Counted from the stretch's first letter, positions 29,423-53,753 are shown. The stretch is 64,000 nucleotides of DNA from an uncultured bacterium (GCA_942636505.2 CALOGB020000012.1:2657-66656), one strand, 5' to 3'. A program made the numbers and translations. The notes: a model not told the origin generated them from the sequence alone.

Positions 29423-29498
29423 GGGGCCGTAGCTCAGATGGGAGAGCGCTGCAATCGCACTGCAGAGGTCAAGGGTTCGATTCCCTTCGGCTCCACCA
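29423..29498 (+). tRNA. tRNA-Ala (anticodon CGC)
   Basis: GGGGCCGTAGCTCAGATGGGAGAGCGCTGCAATCGCACTGCAGAGGTCAAGGGTTCGATTCCCTTCGGCTCCACCA. It has the G3:U70 Ala identity pair, anticodon loop AU-CGC-AC and an encoded CCA. Confidence 0.95.
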
Positions 29499-29531: not shown

Positions 29532-30767
29532 TCAGGCGGCGAGTGACGCTAGTATCAGCGTATCATTCGCGTATCGTAGATGAGCCGACGTGTGCTCCGA
29601 CAACGCCTCGAAGAAGGTATCAACCTCCCGGATCGCAGCCACCAGATAGTCGGGCGAGAGGTGTTCGTAATTGCGCGCGGTAGTATCCTGCGCGGCATGT
29701 CCGGCCAATGCCATGCGCTGCTCCTTGGGCACACCGCGTCTTGCGAGCCAGGTCAGCATTGTATGGCGTAGCGTTTTCGGCGTCGCGCCAACAATTCCCG
29801 CCTCGGCACATACGGCGTTCCAGACAGTCTTTACCGATCGAGTCTCTCGCTCGAAATGCGTTGGTCCGCCAGGGATCTGGTTACGCTCCGCGATCGGCAC
29901 GCGATACTTGATCAGCTTGCCCACGATTCCCGCAACCCAAGGGCGAACATGGCGTGCGATCGGCAGCACGGGCCGCCGCTTGCGCAAGTGAATTTTGCCG
30001 GCGGCGTTAAGGTTGATGAGATTGTTCTCGAGATCAACGTTCTGGTCGGTTAACTCGAGCACAGCCTCTGGACGACCAGCGGTTCCTAATTCGATGACGA
30101 TAAACGCGATCAGGTGTTCGCGTTCCGGCTTCCCCAAGCACGCATTCATGATCGCGGCGATCTCCTGCAAGGTCAGTACGCGGTCCCGCGCCGGTGCCTT
30201 TTGCTGTGGAGGGACATCGGCGATGAACGGCGCGTGTTCGAGCTTCTGGTTTTTCCAAGCCCAGTTCAGGGCACCCCGCAAAGCCGCTAGGTCCCGACTG
30301 ACCGTATGCCCGCCTGCGCCGGCCTTCGCTCGCGCGGTTCGAAACCGTGCCTGAAGGGGCGGCGTGAGATCCGCGACGGTAACCGCTGCGCCCAATCGCC
30401 CTGCCCTTCGTTCGCCATCAAAGAAGTCCATCCAGTGTACAACGGAAACCGCGTATCTGTCAGGCGCGGCGAGCGTCGACACATGATACTTCAGCCAGTC
30501 CGCCATAAGGTCTTCGACAAGCGCCTCATCGCGTCTTTGACGCACTGGGCGGCTGTGCTCCAGGTAATGAGCGGCTAACGCGTCTTTGGCTGCTGTAGGC
30601 GGCCGATCTGCCTCACCTCCTCGAACAGTCGTAGCCTTGCGCCTCGTGACGTCGCCTCCATTTCCGGGACGTTTTTCGAGCCAGCAGATGTTCCACGTTG
30701 CAGTGTCCGGTCGTTGCCAGAGCCAGAATTGTCCAAGTTGTTGTCGTTTGCCGTCGCGCTTACGCAT
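29532..30767 (-). CDS. tyrosine-type site-specific integrase
   Basis: C-terminal catalytic pattern: R (AGRPEAV region), TLRHTMLTWLARRG (HxxR) and LAGHAAQDTTARNYEH (catalytic Tyr). It ends 33 nt from tRNA-Ala. Confidence 0.9.
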   Translation of the reverse strand: MRKRDGKRQQLGQFWLWQRPDTATWNICWLEKRPGNGGDVTRRKATTVRGGEADRPPTAAKDALAAHYLEHSRPVRQRRDEALVEDLMADWLKYHVSTLAAPDRYAVSVVHWMDFFDGERRAGRLGAAVTVADLTPPLQARFRTARAKAGAGGHTVSRDLAALRGALNWAWKNQKLEHAPFIADVPPQQKAPARDRVLTLQEIAAIMNACLGKPEREHLIAFIVIELGTAGRPEAVLELTDQNVDLENNLINLNAAGKIHLRKRRPVLPIARHVRPWVAGIVGKLIKYRVPIAERNQIPGGPTHFERETRSVKTVWNAVCAEAGIVGATPKTLRHTMLTWLARRGVPKEQRMALAGHAAQDTTARNYEHLSPDYLVAAIREVDTFFEALSEHTSAHLRYANDTLILASLAA

Positions 30768-39084: not shown

Positions 39085-39390
39085 TCAATGCGCTAGAATG
39101 ACGAATTTTGTGAATAGCACGCCGAAAGAGAACAGCGCGATCCCGGCAGCCATGCCTAACCCGGAAAGGATCCACGGGGATGTCGCCCATCCATCGAGCC
39201 TGTTCAAAGCCGCTAGATGTTGTTCCAGGGATTTCTCCATGATCTGCTGATTGAGTAGTTCAATTCGCTTGGCACGATTTTGCGACTCGTTGTCCTCTGC
39301 GAGCCGAGTTGTCAGCGTCGTCGGCTCGGATCGGGTCATGGATCGCTTCTCCATCTCGCGCTGCGTGTAATTGGAAGGTTGGCGACTCAT
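39085..39390 (-). CDS. small coiled-coil protein with C-terminal transmembrane anchor (cassette gene 3)
   Basis: Charged helical N-terminal half, then WILSGLGMAAGIALFSFGVLFTKFVIL. ATGA overlap with the upstream gene's stop. Confidence 0.45.
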   Translation of the reverse strand: MSRQPSNYTQREMEKRSMTRSEPTTLTTRLAEDNESQNRAKRIELLNQQIMEKSLEQHLAALNRLDGWATSPWILSGLGMAAGIALFSFGVLFTKFVILAH

Positions 39391-39985: not shown

Positions 39986-40353
39986 TGCTGCGAGTCGGAC
40001 CTACCAATACATGGCCTATCTCCCGATGTCGCCCAAAGAAATATCATTCTGTTAGTCAACGGGTTAGAATCGCATAGTCAACCACACACATGCACTTGAT
40101 GGTTTTACTTATTAATAACGAACTGTAAGCCAGAAGATGACGTCTACACGGTCCATTGTGCTTCAACCGTGACCGGTTTTCCAAATCTTTTTGGCACGAA
40201 GTCCTAAAGGCAATCAATACCAAATGACCCGGGTACTGCCTATCGCCGGCGTCATAATCGAGCCCAAGCCATCCGCGGCTGACCAAGTTGTGGTAGACTT
40301 GGTTACCTTTTTCGCGCCTTATCGCCGCAAGTATCGCGAGGCGGGGGCGGAAA

Positions 40354-43300
40354 TTGGCTACAGTACCGAGTATCGAGCAGGACGAGCCGACCGTTTCGGT
40401 GTTCCAGAGCGACCTTCCCATAGATGAGAAGCTGGATCGCGCGCGGACGGAGCTCCTCGATCTCTCGGCGAGAAACCGGCTGCTCAATATGCCACGCGCG
40501 GCGAAAGGTGCGAAGGCGGTCGAAGTCGTCGACGAGGTCAGCAGCGAGATTTTCCGCATGCTCGTCGTTGAGACGCGCCCCTTCTCGTTCCTCGCGGGCA
40601 AAGCGGCATCTGCCGGTGAGCAAGCCAGCGAAGACGTGCCCGCGGAGGAGTCGGACGAGATTGCCGATCTCGCGCAACCCGAGGATGACGTTGCCGATGA
40701 ACGCGGTGTTTTTTCGCGCCACGTCGATACCCGTCTCCAGACCCGACTAACGCCAAAGGGCCTGCAAAAGCGCCTGCTCGAGCTCTACTTCGACGCGCGC
40801 ACGCTGGAGGAGGAGCAGGGCGTCAACATCCTCTATCTAACGCTTGGTGCGCTCAAGTGGATCGACCCTAACAATGCCGCGAACATCCGGTTCGCACCCC
40901 TGGTACTCGTACCCGTGCAACTCGAGCGCGGCAATGCGGGCGAGAAGTTCAAGCTGAGGATGCGGCAGGAGGACTACGCGTCCAACCTGTCGCTGGAGGC
41001 TTTTCTCGACCGCGCGCACGGCATCCGGCTGCCGACGTTTGAGGGCGGTGAGGATTTCGATCCGGTCGCCTATTTCAAGGACGTCGCCGAGGCTGTGTCG
41101 TCGAAACCGGGCTGGGAGGTTCAGCCCGACGTCGTCGTGCTCGGCTTCTTCTCGTTCGCCAAGTTCCTGATGTACCGCGATCTCGATCCGCAGACCTGGC
41201 CGAACGGCGGCAAGATCACCGAGCGTGCGCTCGTCCGCGGGCTGCTGGCCGACGGGTTCGAGGGCAGCGCGGGCATGATCCCCGAAGATGCCAATATCGA
41301 TCCGTTCATCCCGCCGTCCGAGATGCTCCACATCGTCGACGCCGACAGCTCGCAGGCCTTGGCTGTGCACGAGGTGCGTGGCGGTCGCGACATGGTCATC
41401 CAGGGGCCGCCGGGAACGGGAAAGAGCCAGACGATCGCCAACATCATCGCGTCCGCGATCGCCGACGGAAAGACCGTGCTGTTTGTCGCGGAGAAGATGG
41501 CCGCACTCGAAGTGGTCAAACGACGGCTCGACGCGACCGGCGTCGGCGATGCGTGTCTCGAGCTCCACAGCAACAAGGCCAACAAGCGCGCGGTGCTCGA
41601 AGAACTGCGCCGGACGTGGGAGCTCGGCGCCCCCAAGCATCAGGATGCCGGGAGCCTGCATGCCCGCCTAACGATCGCGCGCGATAGCCTGAACGGTCAC
41701 GTCCAGCGGATGCACGCGCCGCATCCGGCATCCGGGCTGACCCCCTATCAGGTCATCGGCCAGTTGAGCCGGCTACGGCTGGACGGCGAGAAGCCCGGCG
41801 ATCTGACGCTGGTCGAGCCGGAAACTTGGTCGGTCGATGATTTCGCCGAGCGTCACAATGTGATCGGCGAGCTTGCCGAACGGATCACGCTTATCGGTCG
41901 TCCCGGCGAGCACGCATGGCGCGGGGTCGGCCTGTCCTCGATCCTGCCGACCGAGGTTGAGCGGCTGGAGGAACGGCTCTCGGTAGTGATCGAGAAGCTC
42001 GCCGCACTCGACGGGGCGCAGAGCAGTCTTGCGACCCGTCTCGAACTGCCGCCGATGGCGTCGCTCGGCGACATCGGAGTCCTCGTCGTGCTGGCGAACC
42101 GGGTTGCACAGGCGCCCGCGATCGAGGGCACTGCACTCGCGGACACGGTTTGGGAGCATCGCTTCGACGAGATCGACCGGCTGCTCGTAACCGGCCAGCG
42201 CCACGCCCATCTCCGTGGCCATCTCGTATCGTCTGTAACCGAGAGCGGGTGGACGACCGACCTGTCGGAAGCGATCGCCGCCCTGCGCTCGCTGCCGTCG
42301 ACGTTCGCGCTCGCGGATTTCGAACAGGTCGGTGCGCTGGCGGCAGCGCTGCCCCGATTGCAAGCCGAAGCGGGAGCGTTGGCGCGGACGATCGGCCGTG
42401 ATGCGCCCAATTCAATCGACGAAGCCCGTAAGCTTGCCGCGATCGGTGAGCGCGTTGCCAATGCACCTCATGCCGACGCGGATGCCTTTGCCTCCGACGT
42501 CTGGAACTCGGGAGTCGAACGCGCCGCCGATGTCGTCGATGCGGTTGCCGCGTACGAGGACGCGGTCGCGGGGACGACCGGAAAGCTGACCGATGCAGCC
42601 TGGGATATGGAGCTGACGGCTGCGCGGGTCACGCTCGCCTCGCACGGCAGCGGGTTCATGAAGATGTTCAGCGGAGAGTGGCGACGTACGAACCGGCTCG
42701 TCCGATCCGTGCTGACGTCGCCGACAACACCGCTCGACGAGACTCTGCTTTTGCTGGACGCGCTCGCGAAAGGGCAGGCCGCGAAGCGGACGATCGAGCA
42801 GGAGAATGATTTTGCGCGCTCCGCCTTCGGGGCGGAATGGCGCGGCGAGCGCTCGACGTCGGCGCCGCTGTTGAGCGTGGTCGAGTGGATGCGCTCGCTC
42901 CGCGGGCTAGGCGCCGAACCCCGCATCATCGCCGCGCGCCGGCCCGACCGCAGCGAGATCAGCACGCGCGCTTCACGAACGACGGCGTTGATCGAGCAGT
43001 TGGCACCTTCACTGTCAGCTCTGTGGTCCAGCTTGGGTGACGTGCAGGCGCTGGCGTTCGGCGATGTGTCGGCAGCGGACCGCGCCGATCTCGAAGCCTT
43101 GATGACCGTCGTGACACGGCTGCATGCCGCCGACACCGCCAGTTCGGCCGTGCTGGTTTCCGCGCCTGCTAATCTCAACGATCGCCGCCAGATTCTGGAC
43201 GATCTCGCCGAGCTTCAGCGCAAGGATGCAGCGATCGCCGAACTGGCAGAGGTTGGCACCGCGGCGTTCGGAACGGCATGGCGTGGGACTTCGTCCGAAT

Positions 43301-45960
43301 GGAACGCTTTGCGCGCCACCGCCGACTGGATCCGGGCCAACGGCGACATACGCCTTCTGATCAGCAGGATCGACGACCGTGCGGAGCCTGCTGCGGATGC
43401 TGCTTTGGTCGAAGCGAATGCCAAGGCCCTCCTCGATGATCTGACTGCGATCGGCGAGCAGCTTCGCCTCGATCTGGGCGTCGCGCTCGGGCGCGAGACG
43501 TTCGCCGCCACGCCGCTTGTCGATCTGCGCACGCATCTGGAGCGTTGGCACGAGTCAGGCGAGCGCCTGACGCAGTGGACGGCATATCGTGACCGCGCGG
43601 AGCGGACGTCGAAGCTCGGCTGTGACGATGTCGTCAAGCGGCTCGCCGACGGTCGCCTTGGAACGGACGGCGCCGTGCCCGCCTTCGAGATGGCCTATTA
43701 CGAGGCGGTCTATGCCGACCAGATCAGGGCCGATCCCGACCTCGGCACGTTCGACGGCACGTTGCATGGCCGGCTGGCGCGCGAGTTCGCCGACATGGAC
43801 CGCCAGCGAATCGCGACCGCGAGCTTCGAGGTCGTGAAGGCGCATCACCAGGCAGTCCCGGCACGGGATGGCGGCGCAGTCGGTCCGCTCGGCGTGCTGC
43901 GCGCAGAGATCGCCCGCAAGCGCGGTCACATGCCGATCCGTCGCCTCATGGAGAAAGCCGCCCCCGCGGTGCAGGCGTTGAAGCCGGTATTCATGATGAG
44001 CCCCCTGTCCGTGGCGCAGTTCCTGGCACCCGGCCTGTTCGACTTCGATCTGCTGGTCATGGACGAAGCGAGCCAAATCCAGCCGGTCGATGCGCTTGGC
44101 GCGGTCGCGCGGGCCAAGCAGGTCGTCGTTGTCGGCGACCCGAAGCAGCTTCCGCCCACCGCCTTCTTCTCAAAAATGACCGGCGGCGGCGCGGACGATG
44201 ACGACGATGCAGGCACCCGCGTGACCGACATCGAAAGCATTCTCGGCCTGTTCACAGCCCGCGGCCTGCCGATGCGGATGCTGCGCTGGCATTACCGCAG
44301 CAAGCACCAGTCGCTGATCGCGGTCAGCAACCGCCAGTTCTACGAGAACAAGCTGTTCATCGTCCCCAGTCCCTACACCGCCGAGGCGGGCATGGGGCTG
44401 CGCTTCCATCGCATTCCGCAGGGCGTGTTCGATGCCGGCGCCACGCGGACCAACATGGTCGAGGCGAAGGTCGTGGCGCAGGCGATCGTCGCGCACGCGC
44501 GCGACCATCCCGAACTGTCGCTCGGCGTCGCCGCCTTCTCCGCCGCCCAGCGCCGCGCGATCATGGACCAGCTCGAAATCCTTCGTCGCGGCCTCCCAGC
44601 CGCGGTCGAGACGTTCTTCCAGATGCATCACTCCGAGCCGTTCTTCGTCAAGAACCTCGAAAACGTGCAGGGCGACGAGCGCGACGTGATCTTCATTTCG
44701 GTCGGCTACGGACCGACCGTCCCGGGCGGTCGCGTGCTGATGAGGTTCGGGCCGCTCGGCATGGACGGCGGCGAACGGCGATTGAACGTCCTCATCAGCC
44801 GCGCCAAGCAGCGGTGCGAAGTGTTTGCCTCGATGTCGGACGAGGACATCGACCCGGATTTCGCTGGCACCCGCAAGGGGATCCTCGCCTTCAAGCTGTT
44901 CCTGCACTTCGCGCGCACCGGCAAGATGACCATGGCAGAGAGCACCGGCCGCGATCACGACAGCGTGTTCGAGGAGCAGGTCGCCAAGGCGCTGCAAGCC
45001 AGGGGCTATCAGGTCCACCGGCAGGTCGGCCTTGCGGGCTTCTTCATCGATCTCGCGGTGTCCGATGCAGACCGACCCGGCCGCTATCTCATCGGCATCG
45101 AGTGCGACGGCGCATCGTATCACGATGCACGTTCGGCCCGCGATCGCGACCGACTTCGCCAGTCGGTCCTGGAGAGTCATGGCTGGACCATCCACCGTAT
45201 CTGGAGCACCGACTGGTTCCAGCGACCCAAGGAACAGATCGATCTCGTCATTGCGCGGATCGAGGCGGCCAAGGCCGAGCACGATTCCCAGGCCGCCGGC
45301 GTAAAGGCCACGCGTGCCGTGAACGTCGAGATTACCACCCTCGAACGCGAAGGCTTCACCGAGGTCGGCTTGGCCGCGCCCGACGGGGAACCTGCGAACG
45401 GCCTTTACGAAGAAGCCGAAATTACCAGACCTAGGCATCTGCTGGGCGAGCTTCACGACACGCCGCGCGGCGCCTTGTCCGCGCTGGCAGAAGAAGTCGT
45501 GCGGATCGAAGGCCCTGTTCACGCGTGCGAGGTCGTCAACCGTATCCGCGACGCCTGGGGACTGAAGCGGGCCGGCGCCCGCATTCAGGAAGCGGTAGAG
45601 GCAGCGATCGCGGTTTCGGTTCGCGAAGGACGTATAACGGACAAGGACGATTTTCTCGACCTACCGGGCCGGACGCCAAAGGTACGAGACCGCAGTGCGG
45701 TTCGCTCAGCCTCGTTACGGAAGTCCGATACGCTACCGCCGGCTGAGCTCGAGATCGCGATCCTCGACGTCGTGCGGATCAACTACGGCGCGACCGACGA
45801 TCAGGTCATGCAAGCAGCCGCCCGCGCCGTAGGCTTCAAATCGACCAGTAGCCAACTGCGCGACCTGCTGGCGGACGTGATAGCCGCCGCAATCAAGGGC
45901 AACCGACTTGCACGGCAAAGTGGCATGCTTGTGCTCGGCTCTTCGGAGGCGAGGACTTGA
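40354..45960 (+). CDS. giant Upf1-like SF1 helicase with DUF4011-type N-terminus, DUF559/MTES_1575-like REase domain and DUF3320-like C-terminus
   Basis: - N-terminus: LLDLSARNRLLN...GVNILYLTLGALKW...PLVLVPVQLER.
- Walker A: GPPGTGKSQ (41404-41427).
- A helical insert of about 640 aa containing the paralogous segments AFGAEWRG...EWMRSL and AFGTAWRG...DWIRAN.
- VMDEASQ, VVGDPKQLPPT, WHYRSKHQSLI, VQGDERDVIF and RLNVLISRAK.
- REase domain: FFIDLAV...IGIECDGASYHD...HGWTIHRIWSTDW.
- TTG start. Confidence 0.88.
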   Translation: MATVPSIEQDEPTVSVFQSDLPIDEKLDRARTELLDLSARNRLLNMPRAAKGAKAVEVVDEVSSEIFRMLVVETRPFSFLAGKAASAGEQASEDVPAEESDEIADLAQPEDDVADERGVFSRHVDTRLQTRLTPKGLQKRLLELYFDARTLEEEQGVNILYLTLGALKWIDPNNAANIRFAPLVLVPVQLERGNAGEKFKLRMRQEDYASNLSLEAFLDRAHGIRLPTFEGGEDFDPVAYFKDVAEAVSSKPGWEVQPDVVVLGFFSFAKFLMYRDLDPQTWPNGGKITERALVRGLLADGFEGSAGMIPEDANIDPFIPPSEMLHIVDADSSQALAVHEVRGGRDMVIQGPPGTGKSQTIANIIASAIADGKTVLFVAEKMAALEVVKRRLDATGVGDACLELHSNKANKRAVLEELRRTWELGAPKHQDAGSLHARLTIARDSLNGHVQRMHAPHPASGLTPYQVIGQLSRLRLDGEKPGDLTLVEPETWSVDDFAERHNVIGELAERITLIGRPGEHAWRGVGLSSILPTEVERLEERLSVVIEKLAALDGAQSSLATRLELPPMASLGDIGVLVVLANRVAQAPAIEGTALADTVWEHRFDEIDRLLVTGQRHAHLRGHLVSSVTESGWTTDLSEAIAALRSLPSTFALADFEQVGALAAALPRLQAEAGALARTIGRDAPNSIDEARKLAAIGERVANAPHADADAFASDVWNSGVERAADVVDAVAAYEDAVAGTTGKLTDAAWDMELTAARVTLASHGSGFMKMFSGEWRRTNRLVRSVLTSPTTPLDETLLLLDALAKGQAAKRTIEQENDFARSAFGAEWRGERSTSAPLLSVVEWMRSLRGLGAEPRIIAARRPDRSEISTRASRTTALIEQLAPSLSALWSSLGDVQALAFGDVSAADRADLEALMTVVTRLHAADTASSAVLVSAPANLNDRRQILDDLAELQRKDAAIAELAEVGTAAFGTAWRGTSSEWNALRATADWIRANGDIRLLISRIDDRAEPAADAALVEANAKALLDDLTAIGEQLRLDLGVALGRETFAATPLVDLRTHLERWHESGERLTQWTAYRDRAERTSKLGCDDVVKRLADGRLGTDGAVPAFEMAYYEAVYADQIRADPDLGTFDGTLHGRLAREFADMDRQRIATASFEVVKAHHQAVPARDGGAVGPLGVLRAEIARKRGHMPIRRLMEKAAPAVQALKPVFMMSPLSVAQFLAPGLFDFDLLVMDEASQIQPVDALGAVARAKQVVVVGDPKQLPPTAFFSKMTGGGADDDDDAGTRVTDIESILGLFTARGLPMRMLRWHYRSKHQSLIAVSNRQFYENKLFIVPSPYTAEAGMGLRFHRIPQGVFDAGATRTNMVEAKVVAQAIVAHARDHPELSLGVAAFSAAQRRAIMDQLEILRRGLPAAVETFFQMHHSEPFFVKNLENVQGDERDVIFISVGYGPTVPGGRVLMRFGPLGMDGGERRLNVLISRAKQRCEVFASMSDEDIDPDFAGTRKGILAFKLFLHFARTGKMTMAESTGRDHDSVFEEQVAKALQARGYQVHRQVGLAGFFIDLAVSDADRPGRYLIGIECDGASYHDARSARDRDRLRQSVLESHGWTIHRIWSTDWFQRPKEQIDLVIARIEAAKAEHDSQAAGVKATRAVNVEITTLEREGFTEVGLAAPDGEPANGLYEEAEITRPRHLLGELHDTPRGALSALAEEVVRIEGPVHACEVVNRIRDAWGLKRAGARIQEAVEAAIAVSVREGRITDKDDFLDLPGRTPKVRDRSAVRSASLRKSDTLPPAELEIAILDVVRINYGATDDQVMQAAARAVGFKSTSSQLRDLLADVIAAAIKGNRLARQSGMLVLGSSEART

Positions 45961-45990
45961 GGGGCTCGGACGTGGTTTTAGGGGCGGGCC

Positions 45991-48900
45991 ATGGGGGATA
46001 AGACTGGCAATTTCGCATTCCTGGCAGCCCACAGCCCGCAGCTGACCAAGCTGGGTCAACTCGCCGAACGGTATTTTTCGGATGACCCCCCCGCCGCGCT
46101 GGTCAAGTTGCGACAGTTTGCGGAAATCACGGCGAAGACCGTTGCTGCGCGGCATGCCCTGCTTCCCACACAGACAGTGTCGTTCGATGACGTTCTGAGG
46201 ACGCTGCGAGCCCGGTCGATCCTGCCGCGTGAAATCGCCGATCTGTTCTATCACCTGAAGCGCGCTGGGAATGTCGCTGCTCACGAGGATACGGGCAGCG
46301 CGGCCGATGTGCTGACGTCGCTAAAGATTGCTCGTGAGATCGGCATCTGGTTTCACCGGAGTTACGAAGGTCACCCCGATTTTAAACCGGGTCCGTTCGT
46401 CCCGCCGGTGCCGCCGACCGATTTCGGCAGGGCGCTCGCCGACGAACTCGCGCAGTTGAAGAGAACCATCGCTACGAGCGCGGATAGCGAAGCGAAGGCT
46501 GTCCTTGCCGCGCAGGACGCCGAACAAAGACGGCGGGTAAGCGAAAATCGGGCGGAGCAGAACGCGCGGGACAAGGTGTTCTGGGAGAGCTACGCAGCCG
46601 AGACCGAAGCGGCGTTGCGTTCCGCAGAAGCCGCTCTGTCGGGCATGCAGTCCCAAGCCGCTGCGATCCCGCAACATCAGCTCGATATGCTGACGAACCT
46701 AGCCGCCGACGGTGCGAAGCGGGTGGAACTGGATGAGCGGACAACGCGCGTTCTGATCGACGACCGACTCCGGGCCGCTGGATGGACTGTCGATAGTGTG
46801 GGCCTCCGGCACGCGCTTGGGGCCAGGCCAGATTATGTCACGCCGATCGCGATCGCGGAGTGGCCGACCAAGAGCGGTCCCGTTGACTATGCCCTGTTCA
46901 TCGAGGGCCGCTGTGTCGGCGTGATCGAGGCTAAGCGCCAGAGCAGCGACGTGCCCGGCCGGATCGGTCAAGCTAAGCGCTACGCCCGCGACATCACGCT
47001 GACGCCGGACGAGCTGCCCGTCGGTGGCCCTTGGACCCAGAACGAAGACCGTTTTCGCATACCCTTCGTCTTCGCCACCAACGGCCGGGCTTATGTGAAG
47101 CAGCTGGCGACCAAGTCCGGCACTTGGTTCTGGGATGCCCGTGTCCCCGGCGATCCGCCGCGTGCGCTTGTCGAGTGGTTCTCGCCCCGCGATCTCAGCG
47201 AGCGACTGGAGCAGGACATTGCCGCCGAGCCCAGCATCGTCGCCGATCGCGAACTTGGCGTTACCGGACTGCGCCCCTATCAGCGCGATGCGATCACCGC
47301 GGTCGAGAGCGCCATTGCCCGCGGGCAACGCCAGATCCTTCTCGCAATGGCGACCGGCACCGGTAAAACCCGCCTCGCTATCGCGCTGATGTACGAACTG
47401 CTCCGCACTCAGCGCTTTCGCCGCATCCTGTTCCTTGTCGATCGCAATGCGCTCGGTCGCCAGACGCTCGACGCGATGAGCACCACCGACACCAGCGGCT
47501 TCTACAAGTTCGATCAGGTCTTCCCCGTAGCCGACATGACGCGCAAATTCCCCGAGGCGACCGACCGCGTCCAGGTCGCCACCGTGCAGGCCATGATCCA
47601 CCGCGTCTTCGACAATCCCGGCGCCGACCGACCCACCCCCGGCACCTACGACCTCGTGATCGTCGACGAAGCGCACCGCGGCTACACGCTCGATGCCGAG
47701 CTGCGAGAAGACGATCTTGGCTTTCGCAACCTCGACGATTACCTGTCCGCCTATCGCCGCGTGCTCGACTATTTCGACGCCACCAAGGTCGCGCTGACCG
47801 CCACCCCGGCGCTCCACACCCGTGAGATCTTCGGCGCGCCGGTGTTCCGCTATGGCTATCGTCAGGCGGTGATCGACGGCTATCTGATCGATCACCGCCC
47901 GCCGCGCCGCATCACCACCGCGCTCAGCCAGACCGGGATCAGCTTCGAACAAGGCGAGGAGGTCACGATCTTCGACCCGCGCACCGGCGAGGTCGACCTG
48001 TTCGATCTTGAGGACCAGGTCGATTTCGAGATCGCGCAGTTCAACAAGAAGGTTCACACCCGCGCCTTCAACCGCGCGGTCGCCGAAGCCATCGCCGCCG
48101 AATGCCCGCCCGACCAGCCCGGGAAGACGCTGCTCTTCGCCGCGCGGGACGACCATGCCGACATCCTCGTCGACGAACTCCGTGCCGCGCTTACGGCGGA
48201 ATACGGACCGCAACCGCACGACCTCGTCGAGAAGATCACCGGCTCGATCGACAAGCCGCTCGACCGCATCAAGGCGTTCAAGAACGATCCGCGCCCCAAA
48301 TACGTCGTCACCGTCGACCTTCTTACGACCGGCATCGACGTCCCCGCGATCACCAACCTGGTGTTCGTCCGCCGCGTCAACAGCCGCATCCTCTACGACC
48401 AGATGATCGGCCGCGCGACGCGCCGCTGCGACGAGATCGGCAAGGAGTATTTCCGTATCTTCGACGCGGTCGACATTTACGCCAACCTTCAGGACGTCAC
48501 CGACATGCGCCCGGTCGTGGTCAATCCCGGCCTGTCCTTCGGAACGCTGGTTGGCGACATCGAGCGCGCCACCACTGACGAGGACCGCGCCTTCGTCCGC
48601 GACCAGATCGTCGTCAAACTCCGCCAGCGAATCAAATACATCAACGACGACCGCCGCGACGCCCTCGAACCTGTCGTCGGCCCTCTCGGCGACCTTGCCG
48701 ACCGCCTCAAGGACGCGCCCGCCGCCGACACCATCGCGCTCTTCCGCCAGCACCCGTCGCTCGCCACCGTGCTCGATGCCGCCAACCCGGCCCGCACCGG
48801 TGACGGCATCTACATCTCCGAGCACGACGACGAACTCGTCTCGATCGAAGATGATTTCGGCGAAAAGGCGACCCCCGGCGATTATATCGAGAGCTTCGAG

Positions 48901-49380
48901 GCGTATGTCCGCGACAACATGAACGCGGTCCCCGCAATGATCGCCGCCACCCAGCGCCCGCGCGAGCTGACCCGCAAGGAGCTAAAGGAACTCGCCATCC
49001 TTCTAGACGCCAAGGGCTTCTCCGAGGCGAGACTCCGCCGCGCCTATGGCAGCGCGCGCAACGCCGACATCGCTGCGCATATCATTGGTTTCGTCCGCCA
49101 GGCAGCGCTGGGCGACCCGCTCGTCGCGTATGAAACGCGCGTCGACAACGGCGTCCAGCGCATCCTCGCCAGTCGTACCTGGACAGCCAAGCAGAAGCAG
49201 TGGCTCGCCCGCATCGGTCGCGTCCTGCGCGCGCAGCCGGTCGGCGATCCCGAGATACTCTCGGACCCCTTATTTGCACAACATGGCGGCTTCGCAGTGG
49301 TCGACCGGGAGTTCGATTCCGGGCTAGGGGAGGTGCTCAAAGACCTGAACGCCGCGATCTGGGATACCCGCGCGGCATGA
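45991..49380 (+). CDS. hsdR: type I restriction enzyme R subunit (COG4096-type) with DUF4145-like N-terminal domain
   Basis: - N-terminus: FAEITAKTVAA...HLKRAGNVAAHE.
- Nuclease motif: VDYALFIEGRCVGVIEAKR.
- Helicase motifs: LRPYQRDAI, MATGTGKT, VIVDEAHRG and LTATP.
- It starts 30 nt after the helicase stop. Confidence 0.9.
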   Translation: MGDKTGNFAFLAAHSPQLTKLGQLAERYFSDDPPAALVKLRQFAEITAKTVAARHALLPTQTVSFDDVLRTLRARSILPREIADLFYHLKRAGNVAAHEDTGSAADVLTSLKIAREIGIWFHRSYEGHPDFKPGPFVPPVPPTDFGRALADELAQLKRTIATSADSEAKAVLAAQDAEQRRRVSENRAEQNARDKVFWESYAAETEAALRSAEAALSGMQSQAAAIPQHQLDMLTNLAADGAKRVELDERTTRVLIDDRLRAAGWTVDSVGLRHALGARPDYVTPIAIAEWPTKSGPVDYALFIEGRCVGVIEAKRQSSDVPGRIGQAKRYARDITLTPDELPVGGPWTQNEDRFRIPFVFATNGRAYVKQLATKSGTWFWDARVPGDPPRALVEWFSPRDLSERLEQDIAAEPSIVADRELGVTGLRPYQRDAITAVESAIARGQRQILLAMATGTGKTRLAIALMYELLRTQRFRRILFLVDRNALGRQTLDAMSTTDTSGFYKFDQVFPVADMTRKFPEATDRVQVATVQAMIHRVFDNPGADRPTPGTYDLVIVDEAHRGYTLDAELREDDLGFRNLDDYLSAYRRVLDYFDATKVALTATPALHTREIFGAPVFRYGYRQAVIDGYLIDHRPPRRITTALSQTGISFEQGEEVTIFDPRTGEVDLFDLEDQVDFEIAQFNKKVHTRAFNRAVAEAIAAECPPDQPGKTLLFAARDDHADILVDELRAALTAEYGPQPHDLVEKITGSIDKPLDRIKAFKNDPRPKYVVTVDLLTTGIDVPAITNLVFVRRVNSRILYDQMIGRATRRCDEIGKEYFRIFDAVDIYANLQDVTDMRPVVVNPGLSFGTLVGDIERATTDEDRAFVRDQIVVKLRQRIKYINDDRRDALEPVVGPLGDLADRLKDAPAADTIALFRQHPSLATVLDAANPARTGDGIYISEHDDELVSIEDDFGEKATPGDYIESFEAYVRDNMNAVPAMIAATQRPRELTRKELKELAILLDAKGFSEARLRRAYGSARNADIAAHIIGFVRQAALGDPLVAYETRVDNGVQRILASRTWTAKQKQWLARIGRVLRAQPVGDPEILSDPLFAQHGGFAVVDREFDSGLGEVLKDLNAAIWDTRAA

Positions 49381-49393
49381 TGAAAGACTTCGC

Positions 49394-50872
49394 ATGAATC
49401 CCTCCGCCGATCTGGTGAACAAGCTGTGGCGCCTGTGCACGCTGCTCCGCAAGGATGGCGTGACCTACCAGCAATATGTCACCGAGCTTACCTATCTGCT
49501 CTTCCTCAAGATGGCATCCGAGCAGAAGGACGAGAGCCGCATCCCCGAGCAGTATCGCTGGAGCGCGCTGAAATCCACGAACGAGACCGAGGTGTTGACG
49601 CGCTATCGCCAAGCGCTGATTGATCTCGGCGACGGCGCCAAGATCTCCGACCGCTCGATCGTCGCGATCTTCCAGAACGCTGCGACGATCGTGCGCGAGC
49701 CCGTCAATCTGCGCAAGCTGATCGATGCGATCGATGGCCTGCACTGGTATAGCGAGGAGCGCGATGCGTTCGGCGATGCCTATGAGGGCCTGCTCCAGAA
49801 GATGGCGGAGGAAACTAAGCGCGGCGCCGGCCAGTATTTCACCCCGCGCGTGCTCATCGACGTGATCGTCCACCTGATGCAGCCCGAGCCGGGCGAGGTC
49901 ATCCAGGATCCAGCGGCGGGCACTGGCGGCTTCCTGATCGCCGCCGACCGCTACATGCGCGCGACCACGGACGATTATTTCACGCTTTCGCCCAAGCAGC
50001 AGGCATTCCAGCTGAACCAGGCACTGCGCGGCGTCGAGAACGTGCCCGACACCTTTCGCCTGCTCCAGATGAACCTGCATTTGCATAACATCGACCCCGA
50101 TCACCTCGATCTGGCCGATACGCTAAGCCCGCGCGGCGCGGCACCGAAGTACAAGAATGCAGACCTGATCCTGACCAACCCGCCGTTCGGCCCGGCCGGC
50201 GGCCCCCCGACGCGCGACGACCTGACGATTACCGATAGCGTCTCGTCCTATCAGTTCCCGTTCGTCGAACACGTCATCCGCTCGCTCAAACTCGGCGGTC
50301 GCGCCGCGGTAGTGGTGCCTGACAACGTCCTATTCGACGATGGCAAGGGCAAGCTCCTGCGCCAGCGTTTAATGAGCTGGTGCAACCTCCACACCATTCT
50401 GCGCTTGCCGGTCGGCATCTTCTACGCGCAGGGCGTGAAGACCAATGTCCTCTTTTTCACCCGCGCTGACGACGAAGCCCCGCTCAAAGACGCGACCGAA
50501 GCCGTCTGGATCTACGACGCCCGCGCCAACATGCCGAATTATGGCAAGACCAATCCGTTCAAGGCGTCTGATCTTGGCGATTTTGTCGCAGCGTTTGGTG
50601 ACGATCCCGATGGCGGTTTGGAGCGTACCGACGAGGGCGAGACTGGGCGATTCCGTTGCTTCAAGCGTGAAGAGATCACGGCGCGGGGCGACAATCTTGA
50701 TATTGGCTGGCTCAAGGATACCAGCGGGGATCCTGAGGATGGTCTGGAAACGCCAGACGAGATCTCTGCGGCTATCGAATTGCATTTGGCAAACGCGATG
50801 GTCGAGGTTCGCGCACTGATTGACGAGTTAGACGATGGTGCAACTGAACCACTTCTGGCGTCCGCGGAATGA
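49394..50872 (+). CDS. hsdM: type I R-M N6-adenine DNA methyltransferase subunit
   Basis: GQYFTPR, DPAAGTGGFL and LILTNPPFG. Confidence 0.93.
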   Translation: MNPSADLVNKLWRLCTLLRKDGVTYQQYVTELTYLLFLKMASEQKDESRIPEQYRWSALKSTNETEVLTRYRQALIDLGDGAKISDRSIVAIFQNAATIVREPVNLRKLIDAIDGLHWYSEERDAFGDAYEGLLQKMAEETKRGAGQYFTPRVLIDVIVHLMQPEPGEVIQDPAAGTGGFLIAADRYMRATTDDYFTLSPKQQAFQLNQALRGVENVPDTFRLLQMNLHLHNIDPDHLDLADTLSPRGAAPKYKNADLILTNPPFGPAGGPPTRDDLTITDSVSSYQFPFVEHVIRSLKLGGRAAVVVPDNVLFDDGKGKLLRQRLMSWCNLHTILRLPVGIFYAQGVKTNVLFFTRADDEAPLKDATEAVWIYDARANMPNYGKTNPFKASDLGDFVAAFGDDPDGGLERTDEGETGRFRCFKREEITARGDNLDIGWLKDTSGDPEDGLETPDEISAAIELHLANAMVEVRALIDELDDGATEPLLASAE

Positions 50873-52197
50873 CCTTGCCGAAGGGTTGGGCGCTTGGGCG
50901 CGTAGATGAACTAGCTGGACCGAACGGACTTGTTAGTGACGGGGACTGGGTGGAATCAAAGGATCAAGAACCTGGTGGTGACGTCCGGCTCACCCAACTC
51001 GCGGACGTTGGGGAAGGAAGATTTCGAAACAAATCATTCCGCTTTATGACTAAATCAGCGGCCGACCGGCTTCGCTGCACATTCCTGAAGCCGGGCGACG
51101 TTTTGATCGCGCGTATGCCCGATCCAATTGGTCGTGCATGCATCTTCCCGGGGCTAGAGCAACCGGCGGTTACGGCGGTCGACGTTATGATCTGGCGGAC
51201 CGACGGCGGAGTCGCCGAAGCGGAGTGGTTTGTTCGTTGCGTTAATAGTCCCGAAGTTCGCATTTTGATGGCAGCAGGAGCAGGAGGAACAACACGTCAG
51301 CGGATCGCTGGGGGCCGTATAAAGGAACTGGTACTTCCGCTACCTCCCAAAAATGAACAGCGCCGCATCGTTGCAAAGCTGGACGCGCTAATGACCCGCA
51401 TTTCCCTTACCAGGAAGGAACTGGATCGTGTGCCGGGACTTGCCGAACGATTGCGGATCGCAATTTTAAGCCGAGCTTTTACTGGGAAAGCCCCGTCGAA
51501 GACCGTCCGAGAACTAGTTCAGTTTGTAACTAGCGGATCGAGAGGGTGGGCAAAATATTATTCGGATACGGGGCCAGCATTCATTCGTGTCGGGGACGTG
51601 CGCCGACGCGACATAGCACTCGACCTTAACGATATTCAGTCTGTTCAGCCGCCGAGGGGAGCCGAGGGGGCTCGAACCGGAGTTCGTGGAGGTGATGTTG
51701 TTATCACGATAACGGCTGACCTTGGTAGAGTTGGTGTCGTACCTGAAAGTTTGGGGCTAGGTTTCGTCAATCAACATGTCGCGCTAGCGCGGCCGCGTGA
51801 TGTTGGAATGGCGCCCTGGATAGGCTGGTACTTGTCCTCTGACGCGGGTCAGAAACAAATGCTTGCGAAGAACAGAGGTGTCACAAAGGCGGGACTCGGT
51901 TTGGACGACATCCGTGATGTCCTCATTCCAGTTCCAACGCCGGATGTACGAGCTGCCATGTTGAATGAGATCAACATGGCCTTCGCCCGCGCCGACCGTC
52001 TCGAAGCCGAAGCCGCCCGCGCCCGCGCCCTCCTCGACCGGCTCGAGTCCGCGATCCTCGCTAAGGCGTTCCGCGGCGAATTGGTGCCGCAGGATCCAAA
52101 CGACGAGCCCGCCAGCGTCCTGCTCGACCGCATCCGGGCCGAACGTGCGGCCTCGCCGAAACCGAAACGCGGGCGTCGCGCGGCGGCAGACGCCTGA
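50869..52197 (+). CDS. hsdS: type I R-M specificity subunit (two target-recognition domains)
   Basis: Two TRDs are separated by a conserved helix (EQRRIVAKLDAL). The C-terminal conserved helix is LDRLESAILAKAFRGELVPQDPNDEPA. ATGA overlap with hsdM. Confidence 0.9.
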   Translation: MTLPKGWALGRVDELAGPNGLVSDGDWVESKDQEPGGDVRLTQLADVGEGRFRNKSFRFMTKSAADRLRCTFLKPGDVLIARMPDPIGRACIFPGLEQPAVTAVDVMIWRTDGGVAEAEWFVRCVNSPEVRILMAAGAGGTTRQRIAGGRIKELVLPLPPKNEQRRIVAKLDALMTRISLTRKELDRVPGLAERLRIAILSRAFTGKAPSKTVRELVQFVTSGSRGWAKYYSDTGPAFIRVGDVRRRDIALDLNDIQSVQPPRGAEGARTGVRGGDVVITITADLGRVGVVPESLGLGFVNQHVALARPRDVGMAPWIGWYLSSDAGQKQMLAKNRGVTKAGLGLDDIRDVLIPVPTPDVRAAMLNEINMAFARADRLEAEAARARALLDRLESAILAKAFRGELVPQDPNDEPASVLLDRIRAERAASPKPKRGRRAAADA

Positions 52198-52289
52198 CGA
52201 TGCCGATCCGCCACATCATTTGAAGGGTCGGCAGCGCGCCCGCGCCACTCGGCGAGTCTTCGCTGCCGAGCGAGGCTCTGCTTGAACAG

Positions 52290-52778
52290 ATGATCGTCGG
52301 CGCGCCGCAGATCCTCTCCGACGAATGGATGATCATCGGCCGTCAGGAGGATACCGGCTTCGGCGGCCGGATCGATCGGCTCGCGATCGCCCCCGACGGC
52401 GGTCTGGTCCTGATCGAACTGAAACGCGGGCGCACACCGCGCGACGTCGTGGCGCAGGCGATCGACTATCCCACCTGGACTGACGCGCTCGATGCGGAGG
52501 CGATCGGCCGCGTTTATGCGCGCTTCTCGAACGGCGGCAATCTCGCCGCGGATTTCCGCGCGCGGTTCAGCCTGCTGCTCGACGAGGCGACGCTCAACCA
52601 GAGCCTGCAAATCGTGATCGTCGCGGCCAGCCTTGATGCCAGTTCGGAGCGAATCGTCGGCCGTCTCGCCAAACGCGGGATCGCGATCAACGTGCTGTGC
52701 TTTCAGGTGTTCGACACCGACGCTGGCCAACTCCTAGGTGTTTCATCCCACGGTTTGATGGTGCGATCCTTTCGTTGA
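52290..52778 (+). CDS. NucS/RecB-like PD-(D/E)xK nuclease-domain protein, 3' end replaced by IS sequence
   Basis: GGRIDRLAIAPDGGLVLIELKRGRTPRDVVAQAIDY carries the D...E-x-K core. The last 14 codons and the stop lie inside the IS left end. Confidence 0.55.
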   Translation: MIVGAPQILSDEWMIIGRQEDTGFGGRIDRLAIAPDGGLVLIELKRGRTPRDVVAQAIDYPTWTDALDAEAIGRVYARFSNGGNLAADFRARFSLLLDEATLNQSLQIVIVAASLDASSERIVGRLAKRGIAINVLCFQVFDTDAGQLLGVSSHGLMVRSFR

Positions 52779-53753
52779 AATAGAAGGAAGCAGTATGGGA
52801 CAGGTACGTCACGGGAGCGCCACGACCACGCACGCCGTCAGAGCAACAATACAGCGATCGCGAGCTTCGCTCTCGATGCTGAGCCGGGAGCTCGGGATCA
52901 ACCCGAAGACGTTGGCGAAGTGGCGTAAACGAGCGACGGTTGAGGATTTGAAGACCGGGCCGAAGGCCCCTCACTCCACGACCTTGATCCACGCGGAGGA
53001 GGCAGCGGTCATCGCATTCCGGCCTCACACATTACTGCCGCTCGACGATTGCCTCTACGCGTTGCAGCCCTCGATCCCGCAGCTGACACGCTCAGCGCTG
53101 CACCGCTGCCTCCAGCGTTCTGGCATATCCCGTCTGCCGGACATCGAGGGGGACAAGCCGAATCGACAGCGCTTCAAGCGCTACCCGATCGGTTTCTTTC
53201 ACATAGACATCGCCGAGGTTCAGACTGCCGAAGGCAAGCTCTACCTGTTCGTCGGCATCGACCGCACGGGCAAGTTCGCGGCCACCCAGCTCGTCGACAA
53301 GGCAGACAGGCGAACGGCTTGGGAGTTCCTTGAACACTCGCTGAAAGCCGTGCCCTACCGCATTCACACGATCCTGACCGACAACGGCATCCAGTTCGCC
53401 GAGCAACCGCGCAACCGCAACACTGCCTGGTCGCGCCAAATGCGCTTCGACATGATCTGCGAGGCCAATGACATTGAGCACCGGCTTACCAAGCCGAACC
53501 ATCTTTGGACCAACGGTCAGGTCGAGCGGATGAACCGCACGATTAAGGAAGCGACCGTCAAACGCTTTCACTACGAGAGCCACGAGCAGTTGCGGGTTCA
53601 CCTCGCCGACTTCATGGCGGCCTACAATTTCGCCCGGCGGCTCAAAACGCTCAACGGCCTCACGCCTTACGAATACATCGCCAAAATCTGGACGTCAGAG
53701 CCGGATAGGTTCATCGTCGATACGATTTGACAGATGCCGGGACAAAACACCTA
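52735..53753 (+). mobile_element. IS481-family insertion sequence (ends approximate, +/-3 nt)
   Basis: Imperfect terminal inverted repeats TAGGTGTTTCATCCC (left) and GGGACAAAACACCTA (right) flank a DDE transposase. No target-site duplication was visible by eye. Confidence 0.8.
52795..53730 (+). CDS. IS481 family DDE transposase
   Basis: N-terminal HTH (LSRELGINPKTLAKWRKR). Catalytic pattern FFHIDI...ILTDNGIQF...WTNGQVERMN. Confidence 0.92.
   Translation: MGQVRHGSATTTHAVRATIQRSRASLSMLSRELGINPKTLAKWRKRATVEDLKTGPKAPHSTTLIHAEEAAVIAFRPHTLLPLDDCLYALQPSIPQLTRSALHRCLQRSGISRLPDIEGDKPNRQRFKRYPIGFFHIDIAEVQTAEGKLYLFVGIDRTGKFAATQLVDKADRRTAWEFLEHSLKAVPYRIHTILTDNGIQFAEQPRNRNTAWSRQMRFDMICEANDIEHRLTKPNHLWTNGQVERMNRTIKEATVKRFHYESHEQLRVHLADFMAAYNFARRLKTLNGLTPYEYIAKIWTSEPDRFIVDTI

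What the first reader, a model, noticed from the sequence alone, without database searches (positions are those of the whole stretch)
40354..52197. Giant DUF4011-type helicase-nuclease apparently co-operonic with a complete type I R-M: candidate four-gene composite defence module
Four same-strand genes are packed head to tail. The gaps are 30 nt (helicase to hsdR) and 13 nt (hsdR to hsdM), and hsdM-hsdS share an ATGA overlap. I saw no hairpin/T-tract terminator between them.

The first gene encodes 1868 aa. It has a DUF4011-like N-terminus and an Upf1-like SF1 helicase split by a helical insert of about 640 aa. It then carries a Vsr/DUF559-like PD-(D/E)xK module (IGIECDGASYHD...HRIWSTDW) and a DUF3320-like tail.

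hsdR carries an extra DUF4145-like N-terminal domain and a coiled coil. To my knowledge the helicase-nuclease architecture has no assigned biological function, and I know of no described coupling to type I R-M.

Both large proteins combine a translocase with a PD-(D/E)xK nuclease. This could mean a layered or cooperative system, for example a second effector acting on DNA that escapes or stalls the R-M. It could also be an independent single-gene defence that hitch-hikes on the R-M promoter.
Basis: partly seen in the sequence, partly recalled or inferred. Interest (0 to 1): 0.8.

Follow-up and report, generated by a model that had tools for sequence, protein, structure and literature searches.

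The report
Two separable defence modules, side by side
The four genes are real, but they are two already-catalogued anti-phage systems: a ProA/Hhe-like helicase-nuclease and a type I restriction-modification cassette. They sit next to each other in a Sphingomonas defence island where the restriction cassette is repeatedly swapped, so this is not a dedicated four-gene machine.

Summary
Four same-strand ORFs lie at 40354-52197 with 30-nt and 13-nt gaps and an ATGA overlap, and the domain calls are essentially right.

The interpretation does not hold in two respects.

1. The 1868-aa protein is not an orphan. It passes NCBIfam's equivalog cut-off for 'anti-phage protein ProA'. It is PADLOC candidate PDC-S37, and a relative of the experimentally validated single-gene system Hhe.

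2. The adjacency to type I R-M is not a family trait.
- Of 80 species-representative loci of the family, only one has an hsdM within 10 kb, and it belongs to the window's own lineage.
- Of 59 relatives of this hsdR, only two have the giant gene upstream. A 94%-identical cassette instead follows Zorya zorCD.
- Within the narrow Sphingomonas lineage (92-96% identity), the slot after the giant gene holds three unrelated type I cassettes. One is on the opposite strand, and the types are interleaved on the giant-gene tree.

Best reading: two independent modules in a tRNA-Ala defence island, with an R-M exchange slot that begins in the giant gene's last few codons. In this lineage the R-M carries only about 34 nt of leader, so read-through co-transcription is plausible but untested. 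Interest is low.

The parts
29423..29498 (+). tRNA-Ala(CGC), the probable integration site at the left end of the island
   Evidence: ARAGORN. GC falls from about 0.66 to 0.52-0.62 between roughly 28 and 58 kb. In L001 the same tRNA flank is followed directly by an integrase and then the giant gene.
29532..30767 (-). Tyrosine integrase of the island
   Evidence: Pfam Phage_integrase, 1.6e-14. Integrases are also present at the left end of L082, L083, L143 and L144.
40225..40353 (+). Conserved 5' leader that travels with the giant gene; includes the hairpin at 40280-40305
   Evidence: Nucleotide homology with all lineage members starts at 40225-40287 whatever lies further upstream.
40354..45960 (+). 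ProA / PDC-S37 (Hhe-like) single-polypeptide helicase-nuclease, 1868 aa
   Evidence: NCBIfam NF058533.1 antiphage_ProA, 1595 bits against a cut-off of 1500. PADLOC PDC-S37 1857 bits and Hhe 771 bits. Pfam architecture.
40450..41007 (+). DUF4011 N-terminal domain (aa 33-218)
   Evidence: Pfam PF13195, 4.8e-40.
41536..44040 (+). All-alpha insert of about 835 aa splitting the SF1B helicase core (aa 395-1229); the fastest-diverging part of the gene
   Evidence: It lies between Walker A (aa 351) and motif II (aa 1237). The AlphaFold model has mean pLDDT 82.6 and is entirely helical. No solved structural relative was found. Nucleotide identity is 75-82% here against 90-95% at the gene ends between sub-clades.
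44968..45261 (+). Vsr-fold PD-(D/E)xK nuclease domain (MTES_1575/DUF559; IECDG at aa 1582-1586)
   Evidence: Pfam PF18741, 1.9e-37. E1583 and D1585 are invariant in 15 homologues.
45448..45591 (+). DUF3320, described in the literature as a winged helix-turn-helix
   Evidence: Pfam PF11784, 2.9e-16. The wHTH assignment is from PMC3710099.
45940..45990 (+). Module junction: the last ~6 codons and stop of the giant gene, plus the 30-nt spacer carrying the hsdR ribosome-binding site
   Evidence: The C-terminal residues co-vary with cassette type: SSEART (A), SAxSxL (B), PEAPGVW (C). Homology with B and C loci ends at 45938-45946. Homology with the giant-less cassette-A locus L086 starts at 45957.
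45991..49380 (+). hsdR, type I restriction subunit (1129 aa, with the DUF4145 N-terminus typical of its subfamily)
   Evidence: NCBIfam NF008521, 1394 bits against a cut-off of 729. PADLOC REase_I over its full length. Pfam.
49394..50872 (+). hsdM, type I N6-adenine methyltransferase
   Evidence: Pfam N6_Mtase 9.4e-67 and HsdM_N. PADLOC MTase_I, 612 bits.
50869..52197 (+). hsdS, specificity subunit; its target-recognition domains are swapped relative to close relatives
   Evidence: PADLOC Specificity_I over its full length. Nucleotide homology to L081, L082 and L086 breaks at about 50838 and resumes at about 51979.
52200..52735 (+). PDC-S11 (NucS_C-like) defence-candidate gene, a pseudogene in this window
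   Evidence: The intact 375-aa homologue in L082 hits PADLOC PDC-S11 at 484 bits. In the window there is a TGA at codon 8 and the gene is cut at codon ~179.
52735..53753 (+). IS element (rve transposase at 52795-53730) that truncates PDC-S11
   Evidence: Pfam rve/rve_3. 15-nt imperfect inverted repeats at 52735-52749 and 53739-53753. Homology to L082, L086 and L143 stops at 52735.

Best explanation
Window 40354-52197 holds two independent, separately mobile anti-phage modules. They lie next to each other in a Sphingomonas genomic island that starts at a tRNA-Ala and integrase.

Module 1 is a stand-alone ProA/PDC-S37 (Hhe-like) protein. The sequence shows that it fuses a DUF4011 domain, an Upf1/Sen1-like SF1B helicase split by an ~835-aa helical insert, a Vsr-fold nuclease and a DUF3320 winged helix. 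By inference from Hhe and its relatives, the helicase loads on or senses an infection-specific nucleic-acid structure, and the nuclease then cuts DNA.

Module 2 is an ordinary type I R-M (R-M-S order). It methylates the host target sequence and cuts unmodified DNA after translocation.

The space between the giant gene's last few codons and the next gene (PDC-S11) is a cassette-exchange slot. Different type I systems have been dropped into it repeatedly.

In the window's version the R-M cassette brings only about 34 nt of leader. It is therefore probably transcribed by read-through from, or from a promoter inside, the giant gene. That would be an accidental operon fusion, not a four-component machine. 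This last step is inferred, not shown.
For: Identity of module 1:
- NCBIfam ProA equivalog above cut-off.
- PADLOC PDC-S37 and Hhe.
- Hhe is a validated single-gene system that depends on its nuclease, with phage triggers and counters mapped.

Module 1 is stand-alone across the family:
- In 80 species-representative loci, 145 downstream ORFs fall into 119 clusters and 220 upstream ORFs into 194 clusters.
- Pfam and PADLOC show no recurrent R-M among the neighbours.
- An HsdM-like gene within 10 kb occurs only in L001.
- The nearest outgroup, at 81% identity, has no R-M nearby.

Module 2 is independent:
- Of 59 hsdR relatives, only L084 and L085 have the giant gene upstream.
- L086 (HsdR 94% identical) follows Zorya zorC-zorD with a 185-nt gap.
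- The other loci mostly have 60-600-nt upstream gaps, often with a divergent neighbouring gene.

The slot:
- Cassette A (R1129-M-S) is in the window, L081, L082, L084 and L085.
- Cassette B (R910-S-M) is in L001, L083 and L144.
- Cassette C (S-M-R760, opposite strand) is in L143.
- The types are interleaved on the giant-gene tree.
- The junction lies in the last ~6 codons, which co-vary with cassette type.

Precedents:
- A large DUF4011 gene is a conserved boundary of the P. aeruginosa defence hotspot cDHS1.
- Type I R-M loci commonly embed a second defence system.
Against: - All nine contigs of the 92-96% lineage keep some type I R-M immediately after the giant gene, across at least three island contexts. 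Three of three independent occupants of the slot are type I, which is more uniform than a random draw of defence systems would give and could reflect selection for the pairing.
- No expression data exist, so neither co-transcription nor independence is shown.
- The function of ProA-family proteins in Sphingomonas is untested. The equation ProA = 'Prometheus' could not be verified because the primary paper was not available.
Confidence: 0.8

Rival explanations
1. Lineage-specific functional partnership. In this Sphingomonas lineage the ProA-like helicase-nuclease and whichever type I R-M sits beside it act synergistically. For instance, ProA might process DNA ends or R-loops produced by, or escaping, type I restriction. 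Selection would then keep 'a type I R-M' next to the gene even as cassettes are exchanged.
For: - All nine lineage contigs have a type I R-M directly after the giant gene, in at least three different island contexts. The three unrelated cassettes are all type I.
- Gaps are tight in A (30 nt) and B (67 nt).
- Synergy between co-localised defence systems is documented for other pairs (title and abstract of PMC13463889, listed).
Against: - Cassette C is convergent, so no shared transcript is needed.
- The association vanishes at 82% identity or below: 0 of 79 other species loci, and none in the nearest outgroup.
- The same cassette A also sits after Zorya.
- There are only about three independent events, all within one island lineage.
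- From my own knowledge, not checked here: type I for type I allelic replacement at a fixed locus occurs in the E. coli immigration control region without any functional tie to the neighbouring genes.
Confidence: 0.12
2. A dedicated four-gene composite system. The giant helicase-nuclease would be an obligatory fourth subunit or effector of this type I R-M, expressed from one operon.
For: - Same strand, with a 30-nt gap and no detectable terminator or promoter between the genes.
- The arrangement recurs in five contigs.
Against: - Both parts occur alone far more often than together.
- Both are complete, recognised systems by curated profiles.
- Cassette exchange, including an inverted orientation.
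- The terminator scan has no power here.
Confidence: 0.04
3. The adjacency is a decaying remnant. The giant gene in this lineage is a 3'-truncated derivative that lost its AlbA_2 domain when the R-M cassette inserted, and it may be non-functional.
For: The closest outgroup proteins (82% identity, 2043 aa) continue into a C-terminal AlbA_2 domain exactly where the window protein ends and the cassette begins.
Against: - Many more distant family members of about 1860 aa also lack AlbA_2.
- The ORF is intact, and all catalytic motifs are conserved.
- The gene is kept at 85-92% nucleotide identity without disruption in nine contigs.
Confidence: 0.04

Closest known systems
ProA (NCBIfam NF058533.1 'anti-phage protein ProA'), equivalent to PADLOC candidate PDC-S37
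   Same: Full-length match above NCBI's equivalog cut-off (1595 against 1500 bits). It is the best PADLOC hit (1857 bits). Same architecture: DUF4011, split SF1B helicase, Vsr-fold nuclease and DUF3320. It is a stand-alone gene.
   Different: Nothing structural was detected. The source publication for the name could not be read. I infer that ProA belongs to the 'Prometheus' system of van den Berg et al. 2024, which a citing paper says acts through R-loops. That link is unverified.
Hhe (single-gene defence system; per the preprint read, citing its reference 25, which I take from memory to be Gao et al. 2020)
   Same: One giant polypeptide with DUF4011, an SF1 helicase and a Vsr-type endonuclease. 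Defence depends on the nuclease (an E-to-A mutant is inactive). Activation appears to follow phage DNA-metabolism functions.
   Different: The window protein scores below the Hhe equivalog cut-off (1067 against 2000 bits). Enterobacterial members of the window's family have no DNA match in 5,426 E. coli genomes. It is a sister family, not Hhe itself.
Type I restriction-modification (HsdR/HsdM/HsdS), NF008521/PRK11448-type HsdR with EcoEI_R_C
   Same: All three subunits are present with full-length curated-profile matches in R-M-S order. HsdS target-recognition domains are shuffled between close relatives.
   Different: In this lineage hsdR lacks the 60-600-nt upstream region seen in most relatives and starts 30 nt after another gene.
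Defence hotspots bounded by conserved genes, and type I R-M loci with embedded or abutting second systems (P. aeruginosa cDHS1; Pseudomonas GI hotspots)
   Same: A conserved large DUF4011 gene flanks a variable defence region. R-M type I and Prometheus are among the commonest cargo of one hotspot. R-M type I loci often contain a second system.
   Different: Here the slot is in a tRNA-linked island of Sphingomonas, the junction lies within the last codons of the DUF4011 gene, and so far only type I cassettes have been seen in it.

Membership tests
ProA / PDC-S37 | Whole-protein score at or above the curated equivalog cut-off of NF058533.1 | tested here: met
   1595.2 bits against a cut-off of 1500. 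PADLOC PDC-S37 scores 1856.8 bits, E=0.
ProA / PDC-S37 | Architecture of DUF4011, SF1B helicase, Vsr-fold nuclease and DUF3320, with intact catalytic motifs | tested here: met
   Pfam. GPPGTGKS, DEASQ and IECDG are present and invariant in homologues.
ProA / PDC-S37 | Acts as a single-gene system (no conserved partner gene) | tested here: met
   No recurrent neighbour in 80 loci beyond within-genus synteny.
ProA / PDC-S37 | Confers phage resistance | not testable with these tools
   Needs plaque assays with the cloned gene.
Hhe | Whole-protein score at or above the curated equivalog cut-off of NF042953.1 | tested here: not met
   1067.2 bits against a cut-off of 2000. The PADLOC Hhe score (771 bits) is well below the PDC-S37 score.
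Hhe | DUF4011 helicase fused to a Vsr-type endonuclease in one polypeptide | tested here: met
   The Hhe profile aligns over aa 27-1654.
Type I R-M | HsdR with an N-terminal nuclease region, an SF2 translocase and a C-terminal domain | tested here: met
   HSDR_N, ResIII, Helicase_C and EcoEI_R_C. NF008521 scores 1394 against a cut-off of 729.
Type I R-M | HsdM N6-adenine methyltransferase adjacent to HsdS with two target-recognition domains | tested here: met
   N6_Mtase 9.4e-67 and HsdM_N. PADLOC Specificity_I aligns over aa 2-437.
Type I R-M | Sequence-specific m6A methylation and restriction activity | not testable with these tools
   Needs SMRT/ONT methylome data and restriction assays.
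Multi-gene composite system (giant gene + hsdRMS) | Gene adjacency and order conserved across divergent homologues of either component | tested here: not met
   1 of 80 giant-family loci. 2 of 59 hsdR-family loci. Orientation is inverted in L143.
Multi-gene composite system (giant gene + hsdRMS) | Single transcription unit | tested here: inconclusive
   No promoter or terminator is predicted at the junction. The scan also finds none at a convergent junction, and it does not detect the giant gene's own promoter either.

The most novel reading that the evidence does not exclude
In this Sphingomonas lineage the ProA-like helicase-nuclease and a neighbouring type I R-M form a selected functional pair, whichever of three unrelated cassettes is present. 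ProA might act on DNA or R-loop intermediates created when type I enzymes stall or cleave. The last codons of the ProA gene would then serve as a dedicated docking point for type I cassettes.
Probability: 0.12. Interest if true: 0.55.

Novelty: new member of a known kind. Interest (0 to 1): 0.2.

Why it matters
As it stands, this is a clean worked example of defence-island modularity. A catalogued single-gene helicase-nuclease system borders a slot in which complete type I R-M cassettes are exchanged, and the recombination junction can be mapped to the last few codons of the flanking gene.

It corrects the impression that this architecture is uncharacterised, and it removes a candidate 'new four-gene system'.

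If the minority reading were true (selected pairing of ProA with type I R-M), it would add a testable case of cooperation between a helicase-nuclease system and restriction, and a hint about what ProA senses. The present evidence for that is three exchange events in one lineage.

Tried and rejected
- Attachment-site repeat: I searched for a duplicated copy of the tRNA-Ala 3' end to delimit the island. No copy of 14 nt or more was found, so the right boundary is only inferred from GC content and gene content.
- Promoter and terminator scans gave nothing across 38.5-54 kb on the relevant strand. I rejected this as evidence for an operon after the L143 convergent-junction control was also empty. 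Folding the junction RNA gave z = 0.41.
- E. coli homologue: I looked for one, to align with the published Hhe E1731A mutant, using an enterobacterial relative's DNA. There was no match in E. coli genomes.
- Solved structures: sequence search found only weak Upf1-like hits (IGHMBP2, Sen1) and RecA P-loop hits. An AlphaFold model of the 836-aa insert was confident and all-helical, but Foldseek against the PDB gave no match with E of 0.001 or better, only generic coiled-coil proteins with TM-scores of 0.12 or less. A self-BLAST of the insert found no internal sequence repeats.
- Literature on 'PDC-S37' and 'ProA' returned nothing usable. The probable source paper (van den Berg et al. 2024) is not held, so ProA = Prometheus remains an inference.
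- First Pfam tabulation of neighbours exceeded the residue limit. It was redone on cluster representatives.
- Conserved partner gene: I considered the cREC_REC gene and the small ORF upstream. I rejected them because they are missing in L001 and separated from the giant gene by a GmrSD gene in L143 and L144.
Full report
OBSERVATION

The junctions are exact: a 30-nt gap between the giant gene and hsdR, a 13-nt gap between hsdR and hsdM, and an ATGA overlap of hsdM and hsdS.

Pfam confirms the giant protein's layout:
- DUF4011 at aa 33-218.
- An SF1B (Upf1/IGHMBP2/Sen1-like) helicase. Walker A (GPPGTGKS, aa 351) and motif II (DEASQ, aa 1237) are separated by an insert of about 835 aa.
- A Vsr-fold nuclease (MTES_1575/DUF559, IECDG at aa 1582).
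- DUF3320, which has been described as a winged helix-turn-helix (PMC3710099).

The TTG start fits the conserved family N-terminus. HsdR, HsdM and HsdS are complete. The DUF4145 N-terminus of HsdR is not an add-on. It is part of the full-length profile of this HsdR subfamily (PADLOC PDLC03042, NCBIfam NF008521), and it is retained in relatives down to 36% identity.

WHAT THE GIANT GENE IS

It is not an orphan.
- NCBIfam places it above the curated equivalog cut-off of NF058533.1, 'anti-phage protein ProA' (1595 against 1500 bits).
- PADLOC's best hit is the single-gene defence candidate PDC-S37 (1857 bits), followed by Hhe (771 bits).
- It falls below the Hhe equivalog cut-off (1067 against 2000 bits), so it is a sister family of Hhe rather than Hhe itself.

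Hhe is a validated one-gene system with a Vsr endonuclease domain. It is active against lambda, T3, T7 and PhiV-1, and is inactivated by a nuclease point mutation (10.1101/2022.06.16.496414). Genetic screens suggest it responds to the activity of phage DNA-metabolism genes rather than to one protein (10.1101/2024.10.10.617714), and phage-encoded counters exist.

The family is very large.

I infer, but could not verify, that ProA is the protein of the 'Prometheus' system of van den Berg et al. 2024. A citing paper describes that system as R-loop-dependent. The primary paper is not held.

IS THE ADJACENCY CONSERVED?

From the giant gene's side:
- A scan of one genome per GTDB species found 507 relatives. 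The best 80 (45-95% identity) were fetched with 10-kb flanks.
- tblastn with the window's HsdR, HsdM and HsdS, and an HMM built from nine diverse HsdMs, found a type I R-M in only one of them, L001. That locus belongs to the window's own lineage (95% identity).
- The immediate neighbours are heterogeneous. 145 downstream ORFs fall into 119 clusters and 220 upstream ORFs into 194 clusters.
- Pfam and PADLOC show scattered housekeeping and defence genes (Gabija, Hachiman, Thoeris and others, each in one or two loci), with no recurrent R-M.
- The nearest outgroup, at 81% identity, has no R-M nearby.

From the R-M side:
- A metagenome scan with HsdR returned 59 loci, all with the same R-M-S order where sequence was available.
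- Only two (L084 and L085, HsdR 97% identical) have the giant gene upstream.
- L086, whose HsdR is 94% identical, sits 185 nt downstream of Zorya zorC-zorD instead.
- In the remaining loci hsdR is preceded mostly by 60-600 nt of intergenic DNA, often with a divergent neighbour.

So each module occurs alone far more often than together.

THE LINEAGE THAT KEEPS THE PAIRING

All nine contigs whose giant protein is 92-96% identical to the window's carry a type I R-M right after it, but in three unrelated versions:
- Cassette A: R (1129 aa)-M-S on the same strand, 30-nt gap. Found in the window, L081, L082, L084 and L085.
- Cassette B: R (910 aa, 29% identical to A)-S-M on the same strand, 67-nt gap, followed by McrBC. 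Found in L001, L083 and L144.
- Cassette C: S-M-R (760 aa) on the opposite strand, 112 nt away. Found in L143.

On the giant-gene tree the types are interleaved. One sub-clade holds A, B and C, and the other holds A and B. The cassette has therefore been exchanged repeatedly.

Nucleotide homology blocks define the modules. The giant unit runs from 40225 to about 45940. Cassette A runs from 45957 to about 52160 and is followed by PDC-S11. The last four to six codons of the giant gene co-vary with cassette type, so the recombination junction lies inside the 3' end of the ORF.

That point is also where the closest outgroup proteins (82% identity, 2043 aa) continue into a C-terminal AlbA_2 domain.

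A convergent cassette cannot share a transcript with the giant gene, so an obligatory four-gene operon is excluded.

CO-TRANSCRIPTION IN THE WINDOW ITSELF

There is no promoter-like or terminator-like site at the junction, and the junction RNA is unstructured (z = 0.41). This is weak evidence. The same scan finds no terminator at the convergent L143 junction, and it does not find the giant gene's own promoter.

The better argument is comparative. Cassette A brings only about 34 nt of leader. In L086 it has a further ~150 nt of unrelated upstream DNA, and most relatives have longer upstream regions. Read-through from the giant gene, or a promoter embedded in its 3' end, is therefore likely. I rate that as probable but untested.

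CONTEXT

The genes lie in a low-GC stretch that begins at tRNA-Ala (29423-29498) and an integrase. The stretch contains:
- HipA (32696-33931) with a candidate small partner ORF just upstream (33928-34197; not checked)
- a cREC_REC gene
- the two modules
- a PDC-S11 gene, killed by a nonsense codon and an IS insertion
- an AlbA_2 plus GmrSD_N pair

This is a defence island.

There are direct precedents. A large DUF4011 gene is the conserved right boundary of the P. aeruginosa core defence hotspot cDHS1 (10.1101/2022.11.11.516204). In Pseudomonas genomic-island hotspots, Prometheus and R-M type I are among the most abundant cargo, and type I R-M loci usually contain a second defence system (PMC12629846).

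MECHANISM

Shown by sequence: an intact SF1B motor, an intact Vsr-fold nuclease and a winged-helix domain in one chain; and a complete type I R-M.

Inferred: the ProA-like protein acts on its own. It uses the helicase to engage an infection-associated nucleic-acid structure and the nuclease to cut DNA, as proposed for Hhe and its relatives.

The ~835-aa insert is predicted with confidence to be an all-helical array (mean pLDDT 82.6). It has no solved structural relative. It is the fastest-diverging part of the gene. That would suit a sensor or interaction surface, but this is speculation.

The R-M works in the usual way and independently.

VERDICT

The 'novel composite four-gene system' is not supported. 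What is there is a new member of known kinds, placed in an instructive cassette-exchange slot.

A residual possibility is that the ProA and type I pairing is selected in this lineage. I put it at about 12%. It rests on three exchange events that all delivered type I systems. It deserves a simple genetic test, but it does not justify a high score.

Noticed in passing
window 52200-53753: The PDC-S11 (NucS_C-like) defence-candidate gene that follows hsdS in relatives is a pseudogene here. It has a TGA at codon 8 and is truncated at codon ~179 by an ~1-kb IS (rve transposase; 15-nt imperfect inverted repeats at 52735-52749 and 53739-53753).
   Followed up: yes
L013-L015, L017, L019, L020, L068-L070, L076 (about 100-1300 nt downstream of the giant-gene homologue): A Metallophos (~420 aa) plus SMC/AAA_27-like ATPase (~1157 aa) pair, SbcCD-like, recurs on the same strand after the giant-gene homologue in Mesorhizobium, Microvirga and Caulobacter. 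It is the only neighbour pattern that crosses genera, and it might be a real accessory module of that sub-clade.
   Followed up: partly
P0006-P0035 and similar (~2040-aa relatives); window 45940-45960: Many close relatives carry a C-terminal AlbA_2 (Schlafen-like) domain. It starts exactly where the window protein ends and the R-M cassette begins, so the cassette junction coincides with a domain boundary.
   Followed up: partly
L086 1-4683: The same R-M cassette A (HsdR 94% identical) lies directly downstream of a Zorya type I zorC-zorD pair (ZorD 1524 bits in PADLOC). This is a second case of the cassette abutting a helicase-nuclease gene.
   Followed up: yes
window 39085-39767 (- strand): A cREC_REC (cyclic-phosphate-processing receiver) gene of 126 aa overlaps a 105-aa ORF. 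The pair is conserved upstream of the giant gene in several lineage members (L081, L082, L144) but missing in L001. Function here is unknown.
   Followed up: partly
window 53751-56460 (- strand): An AlbA_2 (Schlafen-like) protein and a GmrSD_N/DUF262 protein lie back to back (weak PADLOC HEC-05 hits). This is probably a type IV-restriction-like pair at the right end of the island.
   Followed up: partly
window 41536-44040: The helical insert of the giant gene is far more diverged between the two lineage sub-clades (75-82% nucleotide identity) than the flanking helicase and nuclease parts (90-95%). This suggests either recombination or faster evolution of that region.
   Followed up: partly
window 50838-51979: The target-recognition regions of hsdS have no nucleotide homology to those of otherwise 88-92% identical cassettes. 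This is classic specificity-domain shuffling, so this strain's recognition sequence will differ from its relatives'.
   Followed up: partly
window 32696-34197 (- strand): HipA (411 aa, Pfam HipA_C plus Couple_hipA) lies inside the island, with a small 89-aa ORF immediately upstream that could be its HipB partner. HipA-like genes also recur among neighbours of giant-gene homologues elsewhere (2 of 119 neighbour clusters).
   Followed up: no
window 14926-15129 (- strand): Two tandem tRNA-Arg(ACG) genes lie 50 nt apart.
   Followed up: no
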